The notes: generated from the sequence alone by a model not told the origin. A stretch of 6,966 bases of DNA from a virus (IMGVR_UViG_2534682338_000001:1-6966), one strand, 5' to 3'; positions 1,707 through 6,078 are shown, numbered from the stretch's first letter. Made by a program: numbers and translations.

Positions 1707-3893
1707 ATGAGCACAAAATTTAAAACCGTTATCACCACTGCCGGTGCAGCAAAGCTGGCAGCGGCAACCGCACCGGGAGGGCGGAAGGTCAACATTACCA
1801 CGATGGCCGTCGGGGATGGCGGTGGTAAATTGCCTGTCCCGGATGCCGGGCAGACCGGGCTTATCCACGAAGTCTGGCGACATGCGCTGAACAAAATCAG
1901 TCAGGACAAACGAAACAGTAATTATATTATCGCAGAGCTGGTTATTCCGCCGGAGGTGGGCGGTTTCTGGATGCGTGAGCTTGGCCTGTACGATGATGCG
2001 GGAACGCTAATTGCCGTGGCAAACATGGCCGAAAGTTATAAACCAGCTCTTGCCGAAGGCTCAGGGCGTTCGCAGACCTGTCGCATGGTCATCATCGTCA
2101 GCAGTGTGGCCTCAGTGGAGCTGACCATTGACACCACAACGGTGATGGCGACGCAGGATTACGTTGATGACAAAATTGCAGAGCACGAACAGTCACGACG
2201 TCACCCGGACGCTTCGCTGACCGCAAAAGGTTTTACTCAGTTAAGCAGTGCGACCAACAGCACGTCTGAAACACTGGCCGCAACGCCGAAAGCGGTAAAG
2301 GCCGCGTATGACCTTGCTAACGGGAAATATACCGCACAGGACGCCACCACAGCGCGAAAAGGCCTTGTTCAGCTGAGTAGCGCCATCAACAGCGATTCTG
2401 AAACGCTTGCGGCAACGCCAAAGGCGGTTAAGACAGCGTATGACCTTGCTAACAGGAAATACACTGCACAGGATGCCACCACAGCGCGAAAAGGTCTTGT
2501 CCAGCTAAGTAGCGCCACCAACAGTGATTCTGAAACGCTGGCCGCAACATCAAAAGCGGTGAAGTCTGCCTATGACAATGCTGAAAAACGTCTTCAGAAA
2601 GATCAGAATGGTGCGGATATTCCGGGAAAGGATACCTTCACGAAAAATATCGGTGCCTGTCGTGCTTATAGCGGCGCTTTGAGCACTGAAGCCGGAAACT
2701 GGACAACCGCTCAGTTTATTGAATGGCTGGATTCCCGTGGTGCATTTAATCATCCGTACTGGATGTGCAAAGGCTCCTGGTCATATGCAAATAACAAAAT
2801 CATTACGGATACCGGATGTGGTGATATCCACCTGGCTGGTTGTGTCGTCGAGGTCATGGGAACTAAATCTGCAATCACTATCCGAGTGACCACACCGACA
2901 ACATCAAGCGGTGGCGGTACAACCAGCGCACAATTCACTTACATTAATCATGGGGACGGCTACTCCCCCGGCTGGCGTCGTGACTGGAATCGTCAGGGCG
3001 ACGCAATGACCGGAACGATTAATCAGGACGGTGGAAGCCAGAATGCCTATATGTCTACGGCCTTATGTTCAGGCACAAGAGGCGGCAAAAAATATCTCAG
3101 AAAGTTTCGTGGTGGAGAAGGAGACACTATCTGGCATGAAACAGTACAGGGCGGGGTAGTTCGTTGGGCGACTGGTAATACTGATGCTCAGGAAGAATTA
3201 TCACTCAGCTCCGCTTATGGTCTCCGTTCAAGAGGTGAGATTACATCACTCAGTGCTAATGGTCTGCGCATTGCTTATGGCAATTATGGTTTCTTTATCA
3301 GGAATGATGGCAGCAGCACTTATTTTATGTTGACTAAATCAGGTGACAGATTAGGAACTTATAATAATTTAAGACCGCTGATTATAAATGATGCCACTGG
3401 TGCTGTATCAATGGGGCATGGCCTGAATGTTACTGGTGATATTGTCTCAAGTACCAAAGTACGTGCCGGTAGCGGGAAAAAATTCACGGTCAGCAGCAGT
3501 AATACATCCACGAAGGAAGCCGCATTCAATTTGTGGGGAAACTCAAGTCGTCCGGTGGTGGCTGAATTAGGTGATGATGCAGGCTGGCATTTTTACAGTC
3601 AGAGAAATACAGATAACAGCATCACTTTTGCTGTTAACGGGCAGGTATCACCATCTAACTATGGCAACTTTGATTCACGCTATGTCCGGGATATCCGGCT
3701 TGGTGGTGCTGCCACATACAAACCTGCGAACAATGGCATGACATGGACACATCAGGCACCGTCCGGGTGTGTATATTCCGGCATTATTGTTCAGGATACC
3801 GGCTCAAACTCTGCCGATAACATTGGTGGCATATATTACAGACCGGTGCAGAAATACATTAACGGGACATGGTATAACGTAGCGCAGGTATAA
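1707..3893 (+). CDS. H: Tail fibre protein H (P2 gpH family): conserved high-GC N-terminal baseplate-attachment part, internal tandem repeats, divergent low-GC C-terminal receptor-binding part
   Basis: 728-aa ORF with N-terminus MSTKFKTVITTAGAAKLAAATAPGGRKVNITTMAVGDGGGKLPVPDAG.. typical of P2-like gpH; SD GAGG upstream; the SETLAATPKAVKxAYD motif recurs as in many tail fibres; sample-line GC drops from about 68% (line 1741) to about 40% (lines 3301, 3361). Confidence 0.9.
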   Translation: MSTKFKTVITTAGAAKLAAATAPGGRKVNITTMAVGDGGGKLPVPDAGQTGLIHEVWRHALNKISQDKRNSNYIIAELVIPPEVGGFWMRELGLYDDAGTLIAVANMAESYKPALAEGSGRSQTCRMVIIVSSVASVELTIDTTTVMATQDYVDDKIAEHEQSRRHPDASLTAKGFTQLSSATNSTSETLAATPKAVKAAYDLANGKYTAQDATTARKGLVQLSSAINSDSETLAATPKAVKTAYDLANRKYTAQDATTARKGLVQLSSATNSDSETLAATSKAVKSAYDNAEKRLQKDQNGADIPGKDTFTKNIGACRAYSGALSTEAGNWTTAQFIEWLDSRGAFNHPYWMCKGSWSYANNKIITDTGCGDIHLAGCVVEVMGTKSAITIRVTTPTTSSGGGTTSAQFTYINHGDGYSPGWRRDWNRQGDAMTGTINQDGGSQNAYMSTALCSGTRGGKKYLRKFRGGEGDTIWHETVQGGVVRWATGNTDAQEELSLSSAYGLRSRGEITSLSANGLRIAYGNYGFFIRNDGSSTYFMLTKSGDRLGTYNNLRPLIINDATGAVSMGHGLNVTGDIVSSTKVRAGSGKKFTVSSSNTSTKEAAFNLWGNSSRPVVAELGDDAGWHFYSQRNTDNSITFAVNGQVSPSNYGNFDSRYVRDIRLGGAATYKPANNGMTWTHQAPSGCVYSGIIVQDTGSNSADNIGGIYYRPVQKYINGTWYNVAQV
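2220..2580 (+). repeat. About 2.6 copies of a diverged 132-bp (44-codon) in-frame tandem repeat inside H
   Basis: Unit starts (CAG Gln codons) at 2238, 2370 and 2502, exactly 132 nt apart. Encoded units: QLSSATNSTSETLAATPKAVKAAYDLANGKYTAQDATTARKGLV / QLSSAINSDSETLAATPKAVKTAYDLANRKYTAQDATTARKGLV / QLSSATNSDSETLAATSKAVKSAYDNAEKR.. (third partial). Nucleotide identity between units is roughly 80-85% by eye. Confidence 0.8.
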
Positions 3894-3896
3894 TTT

Positions 3897-4424
3897 ATGC
3901 AGCATTTGATAAATATAATGGCGGGTAATCCAAAAACAGTTGAACAATATCAATTGACAAAGGGCTTTGATGTTGTCTGGTTTTTTACAGAAGATGGTAA
4001 GAACTGGTACGAAGAACAAAAGTATTTTGCTGATGACACGATAAAAATAGCGTACGACAAAGATAATATCATCCGCTATGTGGAAAAGGATGTGACAGCT
4101 ATCAGACCGGATGGATTAAGTGTGGTTGAAGTGGCGGATATTACTGCTAACCGACGGGCGGATATTTCAGGGGGCTGGATGTTTAAGGACGGCAAAGTGA
4201 TTAAACGCATTTATACGGCGGAGGAATTACAGCAGCAGGCAGAAATTCGGAAAGCCAGACTTCTTGCAGATGCTGAATCCGTGATTTTGCCGCTGGAGCG
4301 CGCGGTCAGACTGAACATGGCAACAGAGGAGGAGCGCACACGGCTGGAGGCTTGGGAACGCTACAGCGTTCTGGTCAGTCGTGTGGATCCTGCAAATCCT
4401 GAATGGCCGGAAATGCCGCAATAA
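3897..4424 (+). CDS. G: Tail fibre assembly chaperone G (P2 gpG / Tfa family)
   Basis: 175-aa ORF starting 3 nt after the H stop, matching the P2 gpG length; C-terminus ..[43 protein letters not shown] is recognisable as gpG. The N-terminal third is low GC (about 32% on line 3901) and the C-terminal part high GC (about 57% on line 4261), suggesting mosaic exchange together with the H distal domain. Confidence 0.88.
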
Positions 4425-4485
4425 GTTGTATGAACTCTGGTGTGAGCTTACACATCTATGGCACAGAGTAAAGCCTAATCTGACA

Positions 4486-4513
4486 GTCCGCTCTGTGCCA
4501 GAAGCGGACTTTA
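4486..4513 (+). terminator. Candidate weak intrinsic terminator downstream of G
   Basis: 6-bp stem GTCCGC (4486-4491) / GCGGAC (4504-4509) with a 12-nt loop, followed by TTT. It overlaps a second inverted repeat, GGCACAGAG (4460-4468) / CTCTGTGCC (4491-4499). The T-tract is short, so terminator function is uncertain. Confidence 0.3.
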
Positions 4514-4551
4514 GCAGAGTAGAGATTATCAATAGTGCAAAAAATAACTGG

Positions 4552-4590
4552 TTGAAACATTTGTACGTAAATGTTAGTTGTATTTAGATA
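4552..4590 (+). promoter_or_regulatory. Candidate sigma70-type promoter for the cargo gene
   Basis: TTGAAA at 4552-4557 is a good -35 hexamer, followed by AT-rich sequence with only poor -10 candidates (for example TAGATA at about 4585-4590). Position is about 40-80 nt upstream of the cargo start. Not verified. Confidence 0.25.
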
Positions 4591-4618
4591 AGGTCGTAGG
4601 ATATTTTATTCACATAAA

Positions 4619-5101
4619 ATGGAGTTTAATATGGAAGACTCTTGTAAGAAAAAAATAATGGTTGTTGTTGGAGCTGGCGCTTCGGTTGAATTAGGTATGC
4701 CAAGTGTCAGTGAGATAGATAAGCTGTTTTCGTTATGGGCGAAAGATGGTTACACTTTAGCTAGTGATAAAGATAAAAGTTTGTATTGCTACATTAAGGA
4801 GGAGGTTAATCGTCATTATGGATTGAATCCAAAAAAAGAATTAAGAAAAGAAACTAATTTTGAAGAGTTATTATATGTAATCCTTAATTTATCAGCAGCC
4901 TTGGGGGATAATAACTACAATTTTCCAATGAATGCATTCTGGGGAATAAGGGAACTTCCAAAAATAATTGGAGTTAATGGTGAGAAGTCGGTTGATGGAA
5001 ATGATTTAAGGCACCTTTACTCAAGGTTGAATGATAAACTAATTGGGGAATTTAGAGAGCGTTGTAAAATCGTTAAGGAGGAAAAAAAGAGGAGTTTTTA
5101 G
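4619..5101 (+). CDS. SIR2-like NAD-binding protein, N-terminal fragment (Rossmann GAGAS..GMP motif) of a frame-disrupted single gene; likely true start is the ATG at 4631
   Basis: Translation ..KKKIMVVVGAGASVELGMPSVSEIDKLF.. carries the hydrophobic-GAGxS-x3-GxP signature of the sirtuin/DHS-like NAD-binding fold. GGAG at 4621-4624 sits 6 nt before the ATG at 4631, while the ATG at 4619 has no SD. GC is about 28-38% on sample lines. The ORF ends at TAG 5099-5101 immediately after an A7 tract (5082-5088), while the SIR2 domain continues in frame +1. Confidence 0.7.
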   Translation: MEFNMEDSCKKKIMVVVGAGASVELGMPSVSEIDKLFSLWAKDGYTLASDKDKSLYCYIKEEVNRHYGLNPKKELRKETNFEELLYVILNLSAALGDNNYNFPMNAFWGIRELPKIIGVNGEKSVDGNDLRHLYSRLNDKLIGEFRERCKIVKEEKKRSF

Positions 5102-5886
5102 TTTTTGAAAAATTTATTAACCAACTTAATAATGACTATGACGTTGCTTTTATTACATTAAATTATGACAATCTTATAACTCAAGCTTGTCCAACTCTTT
5201 TTACTGGCTTTAGCAAAAGTACTGGCTTATTTGAAGAGGCAAGTGTTTATGCACAGTCTAAGTGGGGTTTAATTTATCATCTGCATGGTTCAGTTCACTT
5301 TGATATGCAAGGAACCCACTCAGATATGCATGCTGTCAAATGGAATAATGACTTACACTCTGAATTCAATCAGAATGCTTTTGGTAGAAACTCACAAAAT
5401 ACCTCTGAAGGTATAAGCATACCAACCTCGGCAATTGTCGCTGGTTACGCCAAAACCAGTCAGATTCAGCGGGTACCATTCCGTACTTATTACTCGAAGA
5501 TAGATGAGATTGCTTATAAAGCAGATGCTTATTTGTTTTTAGGGTATGGGTTCAATGATCCTCATCTAAATAACTCCCTGCATTCAATAAGAGATGGTAA
5601 ACATAATAAACCAGTCGTTATTATAGACTGGGCATCAGACACCCAAGACCCGATGCGGTTTAGACACGATGAGTGGTCTATAAATCTATGTAAGACTGTT
5701 CGTTCTAATGCTAATGAAATGGCAACGAGAAATTATAAGCACTCGGCTCCAGAAATAAGTAAATTAAAATCCACAGGAGCATTTGAAGTATCTTGCAATC
5801 CAGATTACCCATTATCAATTTGGTATGGTGGTTTTATACAAGCCTGCTCAAATTTTGATAAAATAAAATATGAATTAGGCATGTAA
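5077..5886 (+). CDS. SIR2-like protein, C-terminal part (catalytic Asn and His motifs plus GYGFND motif), reading frame open from 5077; same gene as 4619-5101, separated by a frameshift
   Basis: The frame of ORF 5305-5886 is open back to 5077 (stop TAA at 5074-5076) and reads GGKKEEFLVFEKFINQLNNDYDVAFITLNYDNLITQACPTLFTGFSKSTGLFEEASVYAQSKWGLIYHLHGSVHFDMQGTH.. The Asn codon in TLNYD is at 5161-5163 and the His codon in HLHG at 5284-5286, 41 residues apart, matching the roughly 38-40 residue Asn-to-His spacing I recall for defence SIR2 domains (ThsA, DSR2). ..AYLFLGYGFNDPHL.. at about 5540-5565 resembles the distal SIR2-like motif. There is no ATG between 5077 and 5305, so this segment cannot be translated alone. 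Confidence 0.7.
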   Translation, partial: GGKKEEFLVFEKFINQLNNDYDVAFITLNYDNLITQACPTLFTGFSKSTGLFEEASVYAQSKWGLIYHLHGSVHFDMQGTHSDMHAVKWNNDLHSEFNQNAFGRNSQNTSEGISIPTSAIVAGYAKTSQIQRVPFRTYYSKIDEIAYKADAYLFLGYGFNDPHLNNSLHSIRDGKHNKPVVIIDWASDTQDPMRFRHDEWSINLCKTVRSNANEMATRNYKHSAPEISKLKSTGAFEVSCNPDYPLSIWYGGFIQACSNFDKIKYELGM

Positions 5887-5940
5887 GCAATAAATTAGTT
5901 TATGTTAGTTAAGAGTAGCCTGGGGATGTCTGGCCTAGTC

Positions 5941-5968
5941 AAAAGCGGATTTTGTCATGTCCGCTTTT
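5941..5968. terminator. Perfect 9-bp inverted repeat hairpin (AAAAGCGGA / TCCGCTTTT, 10-nt loop); possible weak bidirectional terminator after the cargo gene
   Basis: AAAAGCGGA at 5941-5949 pairs perfectly with TCCGCTTTT at 5960-5968. The A/T-run symmetry would give a U-tract on either strand; the GC core is only 4 bp, so strength is doubtful. Confidence 0.35.
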
Positions 5969-6051
5969 CGCTCAAAGCAGACTGTCAGAATTGATAGCGT
6001 TTGGGCTATGTAAATTGTCAGTCGGAAAATGAGTGAGTACAAATCAGGACA

Positions 6052-6078
6052 GGCGGGCGAATTGCCCGCCTTTTCTTT
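6052..6078 (+). terminator. Rho-independent terminator separating the cargo unit from the sheath promoter
   Basis: GGCGGGC (6052-6058), loop GAATT, GCCCGCC (6064-6070), followed by TTTTCTTT (6071-6078): a GC-rich 7-bp stem plus T-tract. Confidence 0.7.

What the first reader, a model, noticed from the sequence alone, without database searches (positions are those of the whole stretch)
5570..5886. Uncharacterised C-terminal tail of about 105 aa, and a long insert between the Rossmann motif and catalytic Asn, as candidate sensor regions
After the GYGFND motif the protein continues for about 105 residues (..IIDWASDTQDPMRFRHDEWSINLCKTVRSNANEMATRNYKHSAPEISKLKSTGAFEVSCNPDYPLSIWYGGFIQACSNFDKIKYELGM) with no motif I recognise. 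The stretch between the GAGAS motif and the catalytic Asn is about 160 residues, noticeably longer than I recall for ThsA-type SIR2 domains. If the gene is a defence effector, these are the only places a phage-sensing or autoinhibitory function could reside.
Basis: inference. Interest (0 to 1): 0.45.

Follow-up and report, generated by a model that had tools for sequence, protein, structure and literature searches.

The report
Stand-alone SIR2 gene in P2 prophage
The "mystery tail" and "long insert" are built-in parts of a 418-residue, single-domain SIR2 (NAD-cleaving type) protein that sits in a known phage-defence slot of a P2-like prophage; they are not add-on sensor domains, and the gene copy in this window is broken by a one-base deletion.

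Summary
The intact protein is WP_069907393.1, 418 aa, with GAGAS at 14-18, catalytic N178/D180/H219 and GYGFND at 305-310. That leaves 160 residues between the first motif and the Asn, and 108 after the last motif.

The "insert" is the sirtuin small (cap) domain, enlarged and without zinc. In the closest solved relatives, the Sir2 subunits of SIR2-HerA systems, this is the element that autoinhibits the NADase. The "tail" is not a separate module:
- It is kept by the whole family.
- It is modelled as one compact body with the core (pLDDT 94, pTM 0.92).
- Its beta-strand co-varies with the segment after the last Rossmann strand.
- E. coli SIR2-HerA Sir2 also has about 105 residues after the same motif.

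The gene fills the fun(Z) slot of P2, between G and FI. Homologues occur as a single integron cassette and in defence islands, with no constant partner. It most likely encodes a self-contained, autoinhibited abortive-infection NADase of a family not filed under any named system in the profile libraries and papers searched here.

In this window an A8 run has become A7, which truncates the protein before its catalytic residues.

The parts
4514..5965 (.). Low-GC cargo (about 1.45 kb, GC 0.32-0.40) that occupies the fun(Z) slot of a P2-like prophage, between tail-fibre assembly gene G (3897-4424) and sheath gene FI (6175-)
   Evidence: Homology to the P2 backbone stops at about 4513 and resumes at about 5966. 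In the P2 reference, fun(Z) lies between G and FI. GC profile.
4620..4623 (+). GGAG ribosome-binding site, 7 nt before the ATG at 4631
   Evidence: Read from the sequence. RefSeq starts the intact gene at the equivalent ATG.
4631..5101 (+). 5' part of the SIR2 gene as it reads in this window: residues 1-153, then RSF and a stop. It lacks every catalytic residue.
4670..4684 (+). GAGAS NAD-binding (Rossmann) motif, residues 14-18
4754..5086 (+). Small (cap) domain, residues about 42-152. It has helices 51-63, 77-91 (carrying the conserved TNFEE motif) and 99-102, a beta-hairpin at 111-120 and a long helix at 123-151. There is no zinc module.
   Evidence: AF2 secondary structure; conserved N76, invariant E78, L81, Y82, P110, D135; F77-Y179 covariation; no CxxC; analogy to the PsSIR2 small domain 53-130
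5082..5088 (+). A7 run where intact alleles have A8. This one-base deletion causes the frameshift.
   Evidence: The run is not conserved in homologues.
5089..5886 (+). 3' part of the SIR2 gene in the shifted frame: residues 154-418 plus the stop codon
5161..5169 (+). N178-Y179-D180 catalytic motif (matches N163/D165 of PsSIR2)
5284..5286 (+). H219, the invariant catalytic histidine (matches H212 of PsSIR2)
5542..5559 (+). GYGFND motif, residues 305-310, at the end of a Rossmann strand
5569..5646 (+).
   Evidence: L304-I332 covariation
5647..5883 (+). C-terminal extension of the large domain, residues 340-418: helix 348-356, a variable loop at 357-375, helix 376-382, a beta-hairpin at 386-388/395-398 and terminal helices 402-417
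6051..6071 (+). GC-rich hairpin followed by a T-run, in P2 backbone sequence upstream of the FI promoter region. It is the only terminator-like site after the SIR2 gene.

Best explanation
The segment encodes the last 105 residues of a 418-aa, single-domain SIR2_2 protein (the immunity-type 'SIRim' branch of sirtuins). The gene is carried as lone cargo in the fun(Z) slot of a P2-like prophage.

The protein is bilobed. The large lobe is an enlarged Rossmann domain. Residues 314-339 are its normal last helix and strand. Residues 340-418 add a hairpin strand that lies against the segment following the last Rossmann strand, plus two terminal helices. The small lobe (about 42-152) is the sirtuin cap domain, zinc-free and about 30 residues larger than in PsSIR2. 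It packs on the catalytic N178-Y-D motif.

Most likely mechanism: in uninfected lysogens the cap domain, probably braced by the C-terminal helices, keeps the NAD+ pocket closed. A phage cue, or phage-induced change of oligomeric state, releases it. The enzyme then hydrolyses NAD+ and aborts the infection.

Shown here: gene identity, intact allele, motifs, family-wide conservation of both regions, single-body model, best fold match to SIR2-HerA Sir2, absence of a conserved partner, and location in a defence slot.

Inferred: NADase activity, autoinhibition, the trigger, and abortive infection.

In this particular window the gene carries a one-base deletion (A8 to A7). If the deletion is real, the product ends at residue 153 and is dead.
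For: Identity and intact allele.

Catalytic N178/D180/H219 are invariant and align with PsSIR2 N163/D165/H212.

Model: pLDDT 94.1, pTM 0.92, tail pLDDT 92-98.

In those relatives the small domain autoinhibits, the C-terminal helix braces it or drives assembly, and the large domain is an eight-stranded sheet with extra insertions. E. coli Sir2 also has about 105 residues after GFGFGD.

The full-length architecture is kept in nearly all of the top 150 representatives.

Covariation: A335-Y399 (rank 1), D333-Y399, M342-I397, F77-Y179 (rank 5).

The tail alone has no fold match and no Pfam hit.

Solo status and defence context:
- P2 fun(Z) slot, named as a second P2 defence hotspot in PMC9519451.
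- A one-gene integron cassette in Vibrio parahaemolyticus.
- Neighbours include Shedu, a separate SIR2+HerA pair, TIR-TPR, methyltransferases and toxin-antitoxin genes, but no constant partner.
Against: There is no experiment on this family: the accession search found no paper and the SIR2 literature searches surfaced none on a stand-alone SIR2 of this size.

Similarity to SIR2-HerA Sir2 is moderate (TM about 0.55). Profile-profile alignment covers only the catalytic core, 151-322. So the equivalence of the tails rests on length, topology and analogy, not on a residue-level superposition.

I had no access to model coordinates or PAE. 'Integral' is inferred from pTM, covariation and conservation. 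Covariation and AF2 use the same alignment signal, so they are not independent. Only the top 10-20 DCA pairs are trustworthy at Neff 181.

The cap domain and residues 340-375 are the fastest-evolving parts (35% identity in distant members against 47-51% for the core). That is compatible with a role in specificity.

The copy in this window is frameshifted.
Confidence: 0.6

Rival explanations
1. One reading: the C-terminal ~105 residues are an autonomous sensor or autoinhibitory domain appended to a SIR2 core, as the C-terminal sensor regions of DSR2 or the SLOG domain of ThsA are.
For: The tail folds with high confidence on its own alignment (pLDDT 91, pTM 0.85). It has no sequence-profile match to the Nezha Sir2 tail. 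Residues 340-375 evolve faster than the core. In PsSIR2, mutations in the distal C-terminal helix partly activate the enzyme.
Against: About a quarter of the segment (314-339) is the ordinary last Rossmann helix and strand. The top covariation pair ties Y399 to A335. Whole-chain pTM is 0.92. There is no match to any known domain. The tail is present in essentially every family member, with no domain swapping or length variation. Comparable tails in SIR2-HerA Sir2 are described as part of the large domain.
Confidence: 0.15
2. The protein is an effector that needs a partner encoded elsewhere: a HerA-like ATPase, or a signal-making enzyme whose product it binds.
For: The best fold matches are Sir2 subunits that are inactive without HerA. 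One homologue lies 1.1 kb from a SIR2+HerA pair.
Against: There is no HerA or other constant neighbour in the window or in the nine distinct contexts examined. The adjacent HerA has its own 544-aa SIR2. The Vibrio copy is a one-gene integron cassette. The protein starts at the first Rossmann strand (residue 8) and so lacks an N-terminal helix before it, whereas the alpha1 helix is the element of PsSIR2 and SaSir2 that contacts HerA; whether their alpha1 actually precedes the first strand was not checked, so this point is weak. There is no SLOG, Macro or other ligand-binding domain. It fails the NCBIfam SIR2-HerA Sir2 model (12 bits against 500).
Confidence: 0.12
3. It is not a defence NADase but a sirtuin-like protein modifier (deacylase or ADP-ribosyltransferase) that serves prophage or host regulation.
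For: The SIR2 fold supports several chemistries. No activity has been measured for this family.
Against: It falls in Pfam SIR2_2, not canonical SIR2. It lacks the zinc module that PMC12700824 says canonical deacetylation requires (absence of CxxC shown). Its nearest structures are antiphage NADases. It sits in defence hotspots and cassettes. PMC12700824 and the Bonhomme et al. preprint place SIR2_2/SIRim proteins with immune NADases.
Confidence: 0.08
4. In this genome nothing works: the gene is a decaying pseudogene, and neither the tail nor the catalytic half is translated.
For: The window has A7 where the intact allele has A8, with a stop at 5099-5101.
Against: Apart from the single gap, the 1391-base segment (4560-5950, covering the gene) matches the intact allele, which is reported at 99.9% identity over its full length. 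So the change is very recent or a homopolymer sequencing error. The run reads A_AAA_AAG in frame 0, where a -1 slip would restore the exact protein. That is possible, but no stimulatory element was shown.
Confidence: 0.45

Closest known systems
Sir2 subunit of SIR2-HerA (Nezha) systems: PsSIR2 8w9l, EcSir2 8j4u/8sxx, SaSir2 8yhx
   Different: No HerA gene here or beside homologues. NCBIfam NF042942 scores 12 bits against a cut-off of 500. Only the core aligns at profile level. TM-score is only about 0.55. There is no helix before the first strand. The cap domain is about 30 residues larger and has a beta-hairpin at 111-120.
ThsA of type I Thoeris
   Different: No SLOG or Macro ligand-binding domain and no TIR (ThsB) neighbour. 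The PADLOC ThsA models match only about 24 residues around GYGFND. From memory, not checked here: the catalytic Asn of BcThsA is N112, so the motif-to-Asn spacing is about 100 against 160.
DSR1/DSR2 and Avs5 (SIR2 fused to large sensor domains)
   Different: Avs5 (768-833 residues in the solved chains) and DSR2 (SIR2, MID and C-terminal sensor domains, abstract; DSR1/DSR2 are about 1000 aa from memory) have dedicated sensor domains. This protein is 418 aa and all of it is SIR2 fold.
FAM118B / KomC (short, single-domain SIR2_2 proteins that act as filaments)
   Different: They are much shorter (264-350 aa) and need a paralogue or partner (FAM118A, KomB). They lack the enlarged cap domain and the C-terminal extension.
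P2 fun(Z)
   Same: Same genomic slot between G and FI, holding non-essential lysogenic-conversion cargo that blocks another phage (T5).
   Different: Not the same cargo: fun(Z) is a longer gene (1587 nt against 1257 nt) on the opposite strand, and the two phages share only backbone sequence on either side of the slot; the proteins themselves were not compared.

Membership tests
SIR2_2 / SIRim superfamily (Pfam PF13289) | Score above the Pfam gathering threshold | tested here: met
   54.3 bits against a cut-off of 24.5, residues 173-339
SIR2_2 / SIRim superfamily (Pfam PF13289) | GAGxS Rossmann motif, catalytic N-x-D and H, and no zinc-binding Cys4 module | tested here: met
   G14, G16, N178, D180 and H219 invariant in 70 sequences; no CxxC
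SIR2-HerA (Nezha) Sir2 | Adjacent HerA-type ATPase gene | tested here: not met
   The window holds only P2 tail genes on either side. No HerA partner in the contexts examined. The one nearby HerA has its own SIR2.
SIR2-HerA (Nezha) Sir2 | Match to NCBIfam NF042942 (SIR2_antiphage equivalog) above its cut-off | tested here: not met
   12.2 bits against 500. hhalign against a Nezha Sir2 profile aligns only the core, probability 83.5%.
SIR2-HerA (Nezha) Sir2 | Fold: bilobed, with an enlarged Rossmann domain and a helical cap | tested here: met
ThsA (Thoeris) | C-terminal SLOG (or Macro) signal-binding domain and a TIR-domain ThsB neighbour | tested here: not met
   No such domain. The tail has no fold match. 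No ThsB-type TIR gene immediately adjacent in any context; the only TIR protein seen (a TIR-TPR fusion) lies about 3.4 kb away with three genes between.
DSR1/DSR2 | SIR2 followed by a large C-terminal sensor region (about 1000 aa in total) | tested here: not met
   418 aa, single compact body
SPARSA (SIR2-APAZ with short pAgo) | APAZ domain fused to SIR2 and an adjacent short pAgo | tested here: not met
   PADLOC Aga_SIR2 matches the SIR2 part only (E 4e-18, residues 6-342). No APAZ domain and no Argonaute-family (PIWI) hit among the neighbouring genes; several neighbours have no Pfam hit at all.
Canonical sirtuin deacylases (Pfam SIR2, PF02146) | Zinc-binding module in the small domain, and a Pfam SIR2 match | tested here: not met
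   No PF02146 hit at E<=1; no CxxC pairs
Anti-phage defence system (functional class) | Protects cells from phage and depletes NAD+ on infection | not testable with these tools
   Context evidence only: the P2 fun(Z) hotspot, an integron cassette and defence islands

The most novel reading that the evidence does not exclude
This about 415-aa family is a self-sufficient, one-gene SIR2 defence system: a SIR2-HerA-type Sir2 that has dispensed with HerA. Its enlarged cap domain (variable hairpin 111-120) and the variable loop 357-375 of the C-terminal extension would read a phage cue directly. It spreads as a minimal cassette between P2 prophages, genomic islands and chromosomal integrons. That would make it the smallest SIR2 immune protein carrying sensor, switch and effector in a single fold.
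Probability: 0.35. Interest if true: 0.55.

Novelty: new variant of a known kind. Interest (0 to 1): 0.33.

Why it matters
SIR2 NADases are among the commonest abortive-infection effectors, but every characterised one is coupled to a separate sensor: HerA, pAgo, a SLOG domain, a STAND NTPase, or the long DSR tail. This family is compact and partner-less, and it sits in proven defence hotspots. If it works alone, it would show how a bare SIR2 fold senses infection through its own cap domain and oligomer surfaces.

It would also give a small, tractable model of only 418 aa. For the specific finding, the practical message is where to cut. Cap-domain deletion (about 42-152) and removal of the terminal helices (402-418) are the informative mutants. 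Removing the whole 105-residue 'tail' would probably just unfold the protein.

Tried and rejected
- Pfam on the insert alone and on the tail alone found nothing, even at E<=10.
- hhalign of the family against a Nezha-type Sir2 alignment aligned only the core.
- A homologue search seeded with a 127-aa PsSIR2 fragment returned only proteins of 223 aa or less, so no full-length PsSIR2 relatives were recovered. That search was wasted.
- AFDB Foldseek was unavailable.
- Model coordinates are not exposed to the scripting tool, so contact and PAE analysis was replaced by mean-field DCA. Only its top pairs are used; pairs below about rank 30 look like noise.
- Programmed frameshifting or phase variation at the A-run: the heptamer A_AAA_AAG is in phase. 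However, the SD-like AAGGAGG is only 1 nt upstream, too close (from memory) for the roughly 10-nt spacing seen at dnaX. The run is absent from homologues. I rejected this as the leading reading.
- PD-T7-2 of Vassallo et al. is a SIR2 plus ATPase pair, not this protein.
- No paper mentions WP_069907393.
- The phage collection holds no near-identical DNA.

Full report
**What is in the window.** The window is the late (tail) region of a P2-like prophage. It holds gpW (partial), J (265-1173), I (1166-1696), tail fibre H (1707-3893), fibre assembly G (3897-4424), and tail sheath FI from 6175. Between G and FI lies a low-GC island, GC 0.32-0.40 against 0.52-0.60 in the flanks. Comparison with the P2 reference shows that backbone homology stops at about 4513 and resumes at about 5966. 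In P2 this slot holds fun(Z), a non-essential gene that blocks phage T5. Vassallo et al. describe the fun locus as a second defence-enriched hotspot of P2-like phages (PMC9519451).

**The gene and the observation.** The island holds one gene, and in the window it is split. One frame runs from ATG 4631 (RBS GGAG at 4620-4623) to a stop at 5099-5101. A second frame continues to the stop at 5884-5886. Two complete E. coli chromosomes carry the same prophage locus at 99.9% identity. They have A8 where the window has A7 (5082-5088), which gives an intact 418-aa 'SIR2 family protein', WP_069907393.1. That exact protein is on record in 246 collection blocks.

In the intact protein GAGAS is 14-18, the catalytic motif is N178-Y-D180, the histidine is H219 and GYGFND is 305-310. 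The quoted peptide is present, although the finding's start coordinate is one base out of phase (residues 314-418 are 5569-5883). The spacing is indeed long: about 131 residues in E. coli SIR2-HerA Sir2 and about 90 in KomC.

**Family.** Pfam assigns SIR2_2 (54.3 bits). PADLOC's generic SIR2 and pAgo-associated SIR2 profiles cover residues 6-350 at E about 1e-18. The NCBIfam model for SIR2-HerA Sir2 is far from met, at 12 bits against 500.

A database search gives 253 homologues. The 120 listed are about 410-420 aa and cover 97-100% of the query down to 40% identity. An exhaustive profile search finds 3064 cluster representatives at E<=1e-3 and 250 at E<=1e-30. Nearly all full-length proteins among the top 150 match from profile position about 3 to about 413 of 415. 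So both the 'insert' and the 'tail' are fixed features of a deep family, not lineage-specific additions.

Both regions contain strongly conserved positions:
- In the insert: D30, L51, Y52, N76, E78 (invariant), L81, Y82, P110, L129, L133, D135, L137, F141, C145.
- In the tail: R345, D347, W349, K380, E386, S388, P394, L395, W398, G401 (invariant), A405, C406.

They contain almost no gaps. They are nevertheless the faster-evolving parts. Identity to the query in distant members is 0.35 for residues 42-152 and for 340-375, 0.45 for 376-418, and 0.47-0.51 for the catalytic core.

**Structure.** AlphaFold2 on a 70-sequence alignment gives pLDDT 94.1 and pTM 0.92, with the last 80 residues at 92-98. 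By inference, a pTM this high for 418 residues leaves no room for a loosely tethered 80-100-residue module.

The secondary structure reads as follows:
- Rossmann strand 8-13, then helices 16-19 and 26-41.
- A lobe made of helices 51-63, 77-91 and 99-102, a hairpin at 111-120 and a long helix at 123-151.
- Helix 153-169 leading into the strand that carries N178.
- The H219 strand, a beta-rich stretch at 224-265, and helix 284-297.
- The GYGFND strand at 300-304, helices 311-322 and strand 329-332.
- Finally helix 348-356, a loop, helix 376-382, a hairpin at 386-388/395-398 and helices 402-417.

**What the two regions are.** The papers on those structures describe a bilobed protein. The large domain is a Rossmann fold with an eight-stranded sheet, extra insertions and C-terminal helices. 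The small domain is a helical cap inserted after the second helix.

In PsSIR2 the small domain (53-130) blocks the NAD+ pocket, and deleting it activates the NADase. Mutating the distal C-terminal helix (F361A/Q362A), which packs on helices alpha2 and alpha7, partly activates it. The insertions mediate dodecamer assembly. In E. coli Sir2 the C-terminal helix drives assembly. E. coli Sir2 has GFGFGD at about 306-311 of 415 residues, the same 105-residue remainder as here.

It is zinc-free (no CxxC) and about 30 residues larger than in PsSIR2. The 'tail' is the last Rossmann helix and strand (314-339) plus a C-terminal extension of the large domain (340-418).

A mean-field covariation analysis on 201 full-length members (Neff 181) supports this. 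The strongest pair in the protein is A335-Y399. D333-Y399 and M342-I397 are also high. These place the 395-398 strand against the segment that follows the last Rossmann strand. F77-Y179 (rank 5) places the conserved TNFEE helix of the cap domain on the catalytic NYD motif. Sanity pairs such as A173-L214 and L304-I332 link segments modelled as beta-strands (171-176 with 214-217, 300-304 with 329-332), as expected for neighbouring strands of one sheet; without coordinates I could not confirm their adjacency in the model. Pairs below about rank 30 are not used.

Caveats:
- I could not access coordinates or PAE.
- Profile-profile alignment with Nezha-type Sir2 covers only residues 151-322.
- The tail-to-tail equivalence with SIR2-HerA Sir2 therefore rests on length, topology and the published descriptions.

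**Partner or solo.** The window has no HerA, TIR, pAgo or other candidate partner. The distinct contexts examined show no constant neighbour:
- The identical protein also sits in a non-P2 island with RadC, antirestriction and Ag43-like genes.
- The 73%-identical Vibrio parahaemolyticus homologue is a single cassette of a chromosomal integron. attC-like repeats at 5840-5961 and 7260-7380 bracket the gene at 6001-7263, and there are 19 such repeats in 13 kb.
- Other homologues lie next to an IS element; a DNA methylase, an ORC/CDC6-like protein and an integrase; toxin-antitoxin genes; a D12 methyltransferase and a transposase; TIR-TPR, DUF4238 and a separate complete SIR2(544 aa)+HerA pair; and Shedu.

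**Mechanism proposed.** The family is most likely a self-contained abortive-infection NADase. The cap domain, probably braced by the C-terminal helices, holds the pocket shut. Infection, through a phage protein or a change of oligomeric state, opens it, and NAD+ is then depleted. Chemistry, autoinhibition, trigger and phenotype are all inferred by homology and context; none is shown.

The most variable patches are the hairpin 111-120, the helix junction 151-160 and the loop 361-380. The hairpin and the loop are the best guesses for specificity determinants.

Rivals, with my estimates:
- The tail as a true separate sensor domain (0.15).
- An effector that needs a partner in trans (0.12).
- A non-defence protein modifier (0.08).
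- Independently of those, the copy in this window is simply dead (0.45).

**The frameshift.** The A7/A8 difference is the only difference from the intact allele over the 1391 bases compared, 4560-5950. The run is not conserved in homologues. A recent mutation or a homopolymer sequencing error is the simplest reading. In the window's frame 0 the run reads A_AAA_AAG, the classic -1 slippery heptamer, and a -1 slip would regenerate exactly the intact protein. No suitably spaced stimulator is evident, so this is recorded as a curiosity only.

**Verdict.**
- Observation: confirmed.
- Interpretation: partly supported. The insert is a plausible autoinhibitory element, but it is the canonical cap domain.
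- Family: it was not found under any named defence system in the profile libraries (Pfam, PADLOC, NCBIfam) or in the papers searched here. It differs from SIR2-HerA Sir2 by lacking HerA and failing its family model. I rate it a new variant of a known kind, of moderate interest.

Noticed in passing
window 5075-5089: The frameshift site reads AAGGAGG then A_AAA_AAG in frame 0. That is the dnaX-type -1 slippery heptamer in the correct phase, and a -1 slip would give exactly the intact 418-aa protein. The SD-like element is only 1 nt upstream and the A-run is absent from homologues, so this is probably just a homopolymer indel.
   Followed up: partly
L012 6830-8345 (GCA_045573905.1) against window about 4473-5975: The identical SIR2 gene also sits in a non-P2 genomic island (RadC, antirestriction, DUF932, Ag43-like autotransporter, YeeP-like GTPase). 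The shared DNA includes about 40 nt of P2 backbone on the left (ctaatctgacagtccgctctgtgccagaagcggac). This suggests the island copy came from a P2-like prophage.
   Followed up: partly
L003 5840-7380 (Vibrio parahaemolyticus CP196793.1): The 73%-identical homologue is a single-gene cassette of a chromosomal integron. attC-like repeats flank it, and there are 19 such repeats in 13 kb.
   Followed up: yes
window 4480-4513: P2 backbone sequence at the left edge of the cargo slot forms a short hairpin (GTCCGC...GCGGAC) and is conserved in the P2 reference. It may mark the recombination boundary used when cargo is swapped.
   Followed up: no
L001 1-615 / L010 300-1544 (outside the window, same prophage): There is a second piece of cargo in this prophage: a 414-aa minus-strand 'ATP-binding protein' (WP_000648253.1, no Pfam hit on record) between tail gene S and baseplate gene V.
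   Followed up: no
L017 7348-10760: One homologue (P0092) lies 1.1 kb upstream of a complete, separate SIR2 (544 aa) + HerA-like pair, and downstream of TIR-TPR and DUF4238 genes. Another homologue (P0098, L018) abuts a Shedu gene. These are defence-island contexts.
   Followed up: partly
window 3000-4050: GC falls from about 0.55 to 0.42-0.47 in the 3' third of tail-fibre gene H, and to 0.39-0.40 at the start of G. This is the usual sign of a swapped receptor-binding module.
   Followed up: no
protein residues 74-82 (window 4850-4876): A strongly conserved K-x-T-N-F-E-E-x-L-Y motif (E78 invariant) lies inside the cap domain and co-varies with the catalytic NYD motif (F77-Y179). I did not find it described for other SIR2 families in the papers read.
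   Followed up: partly
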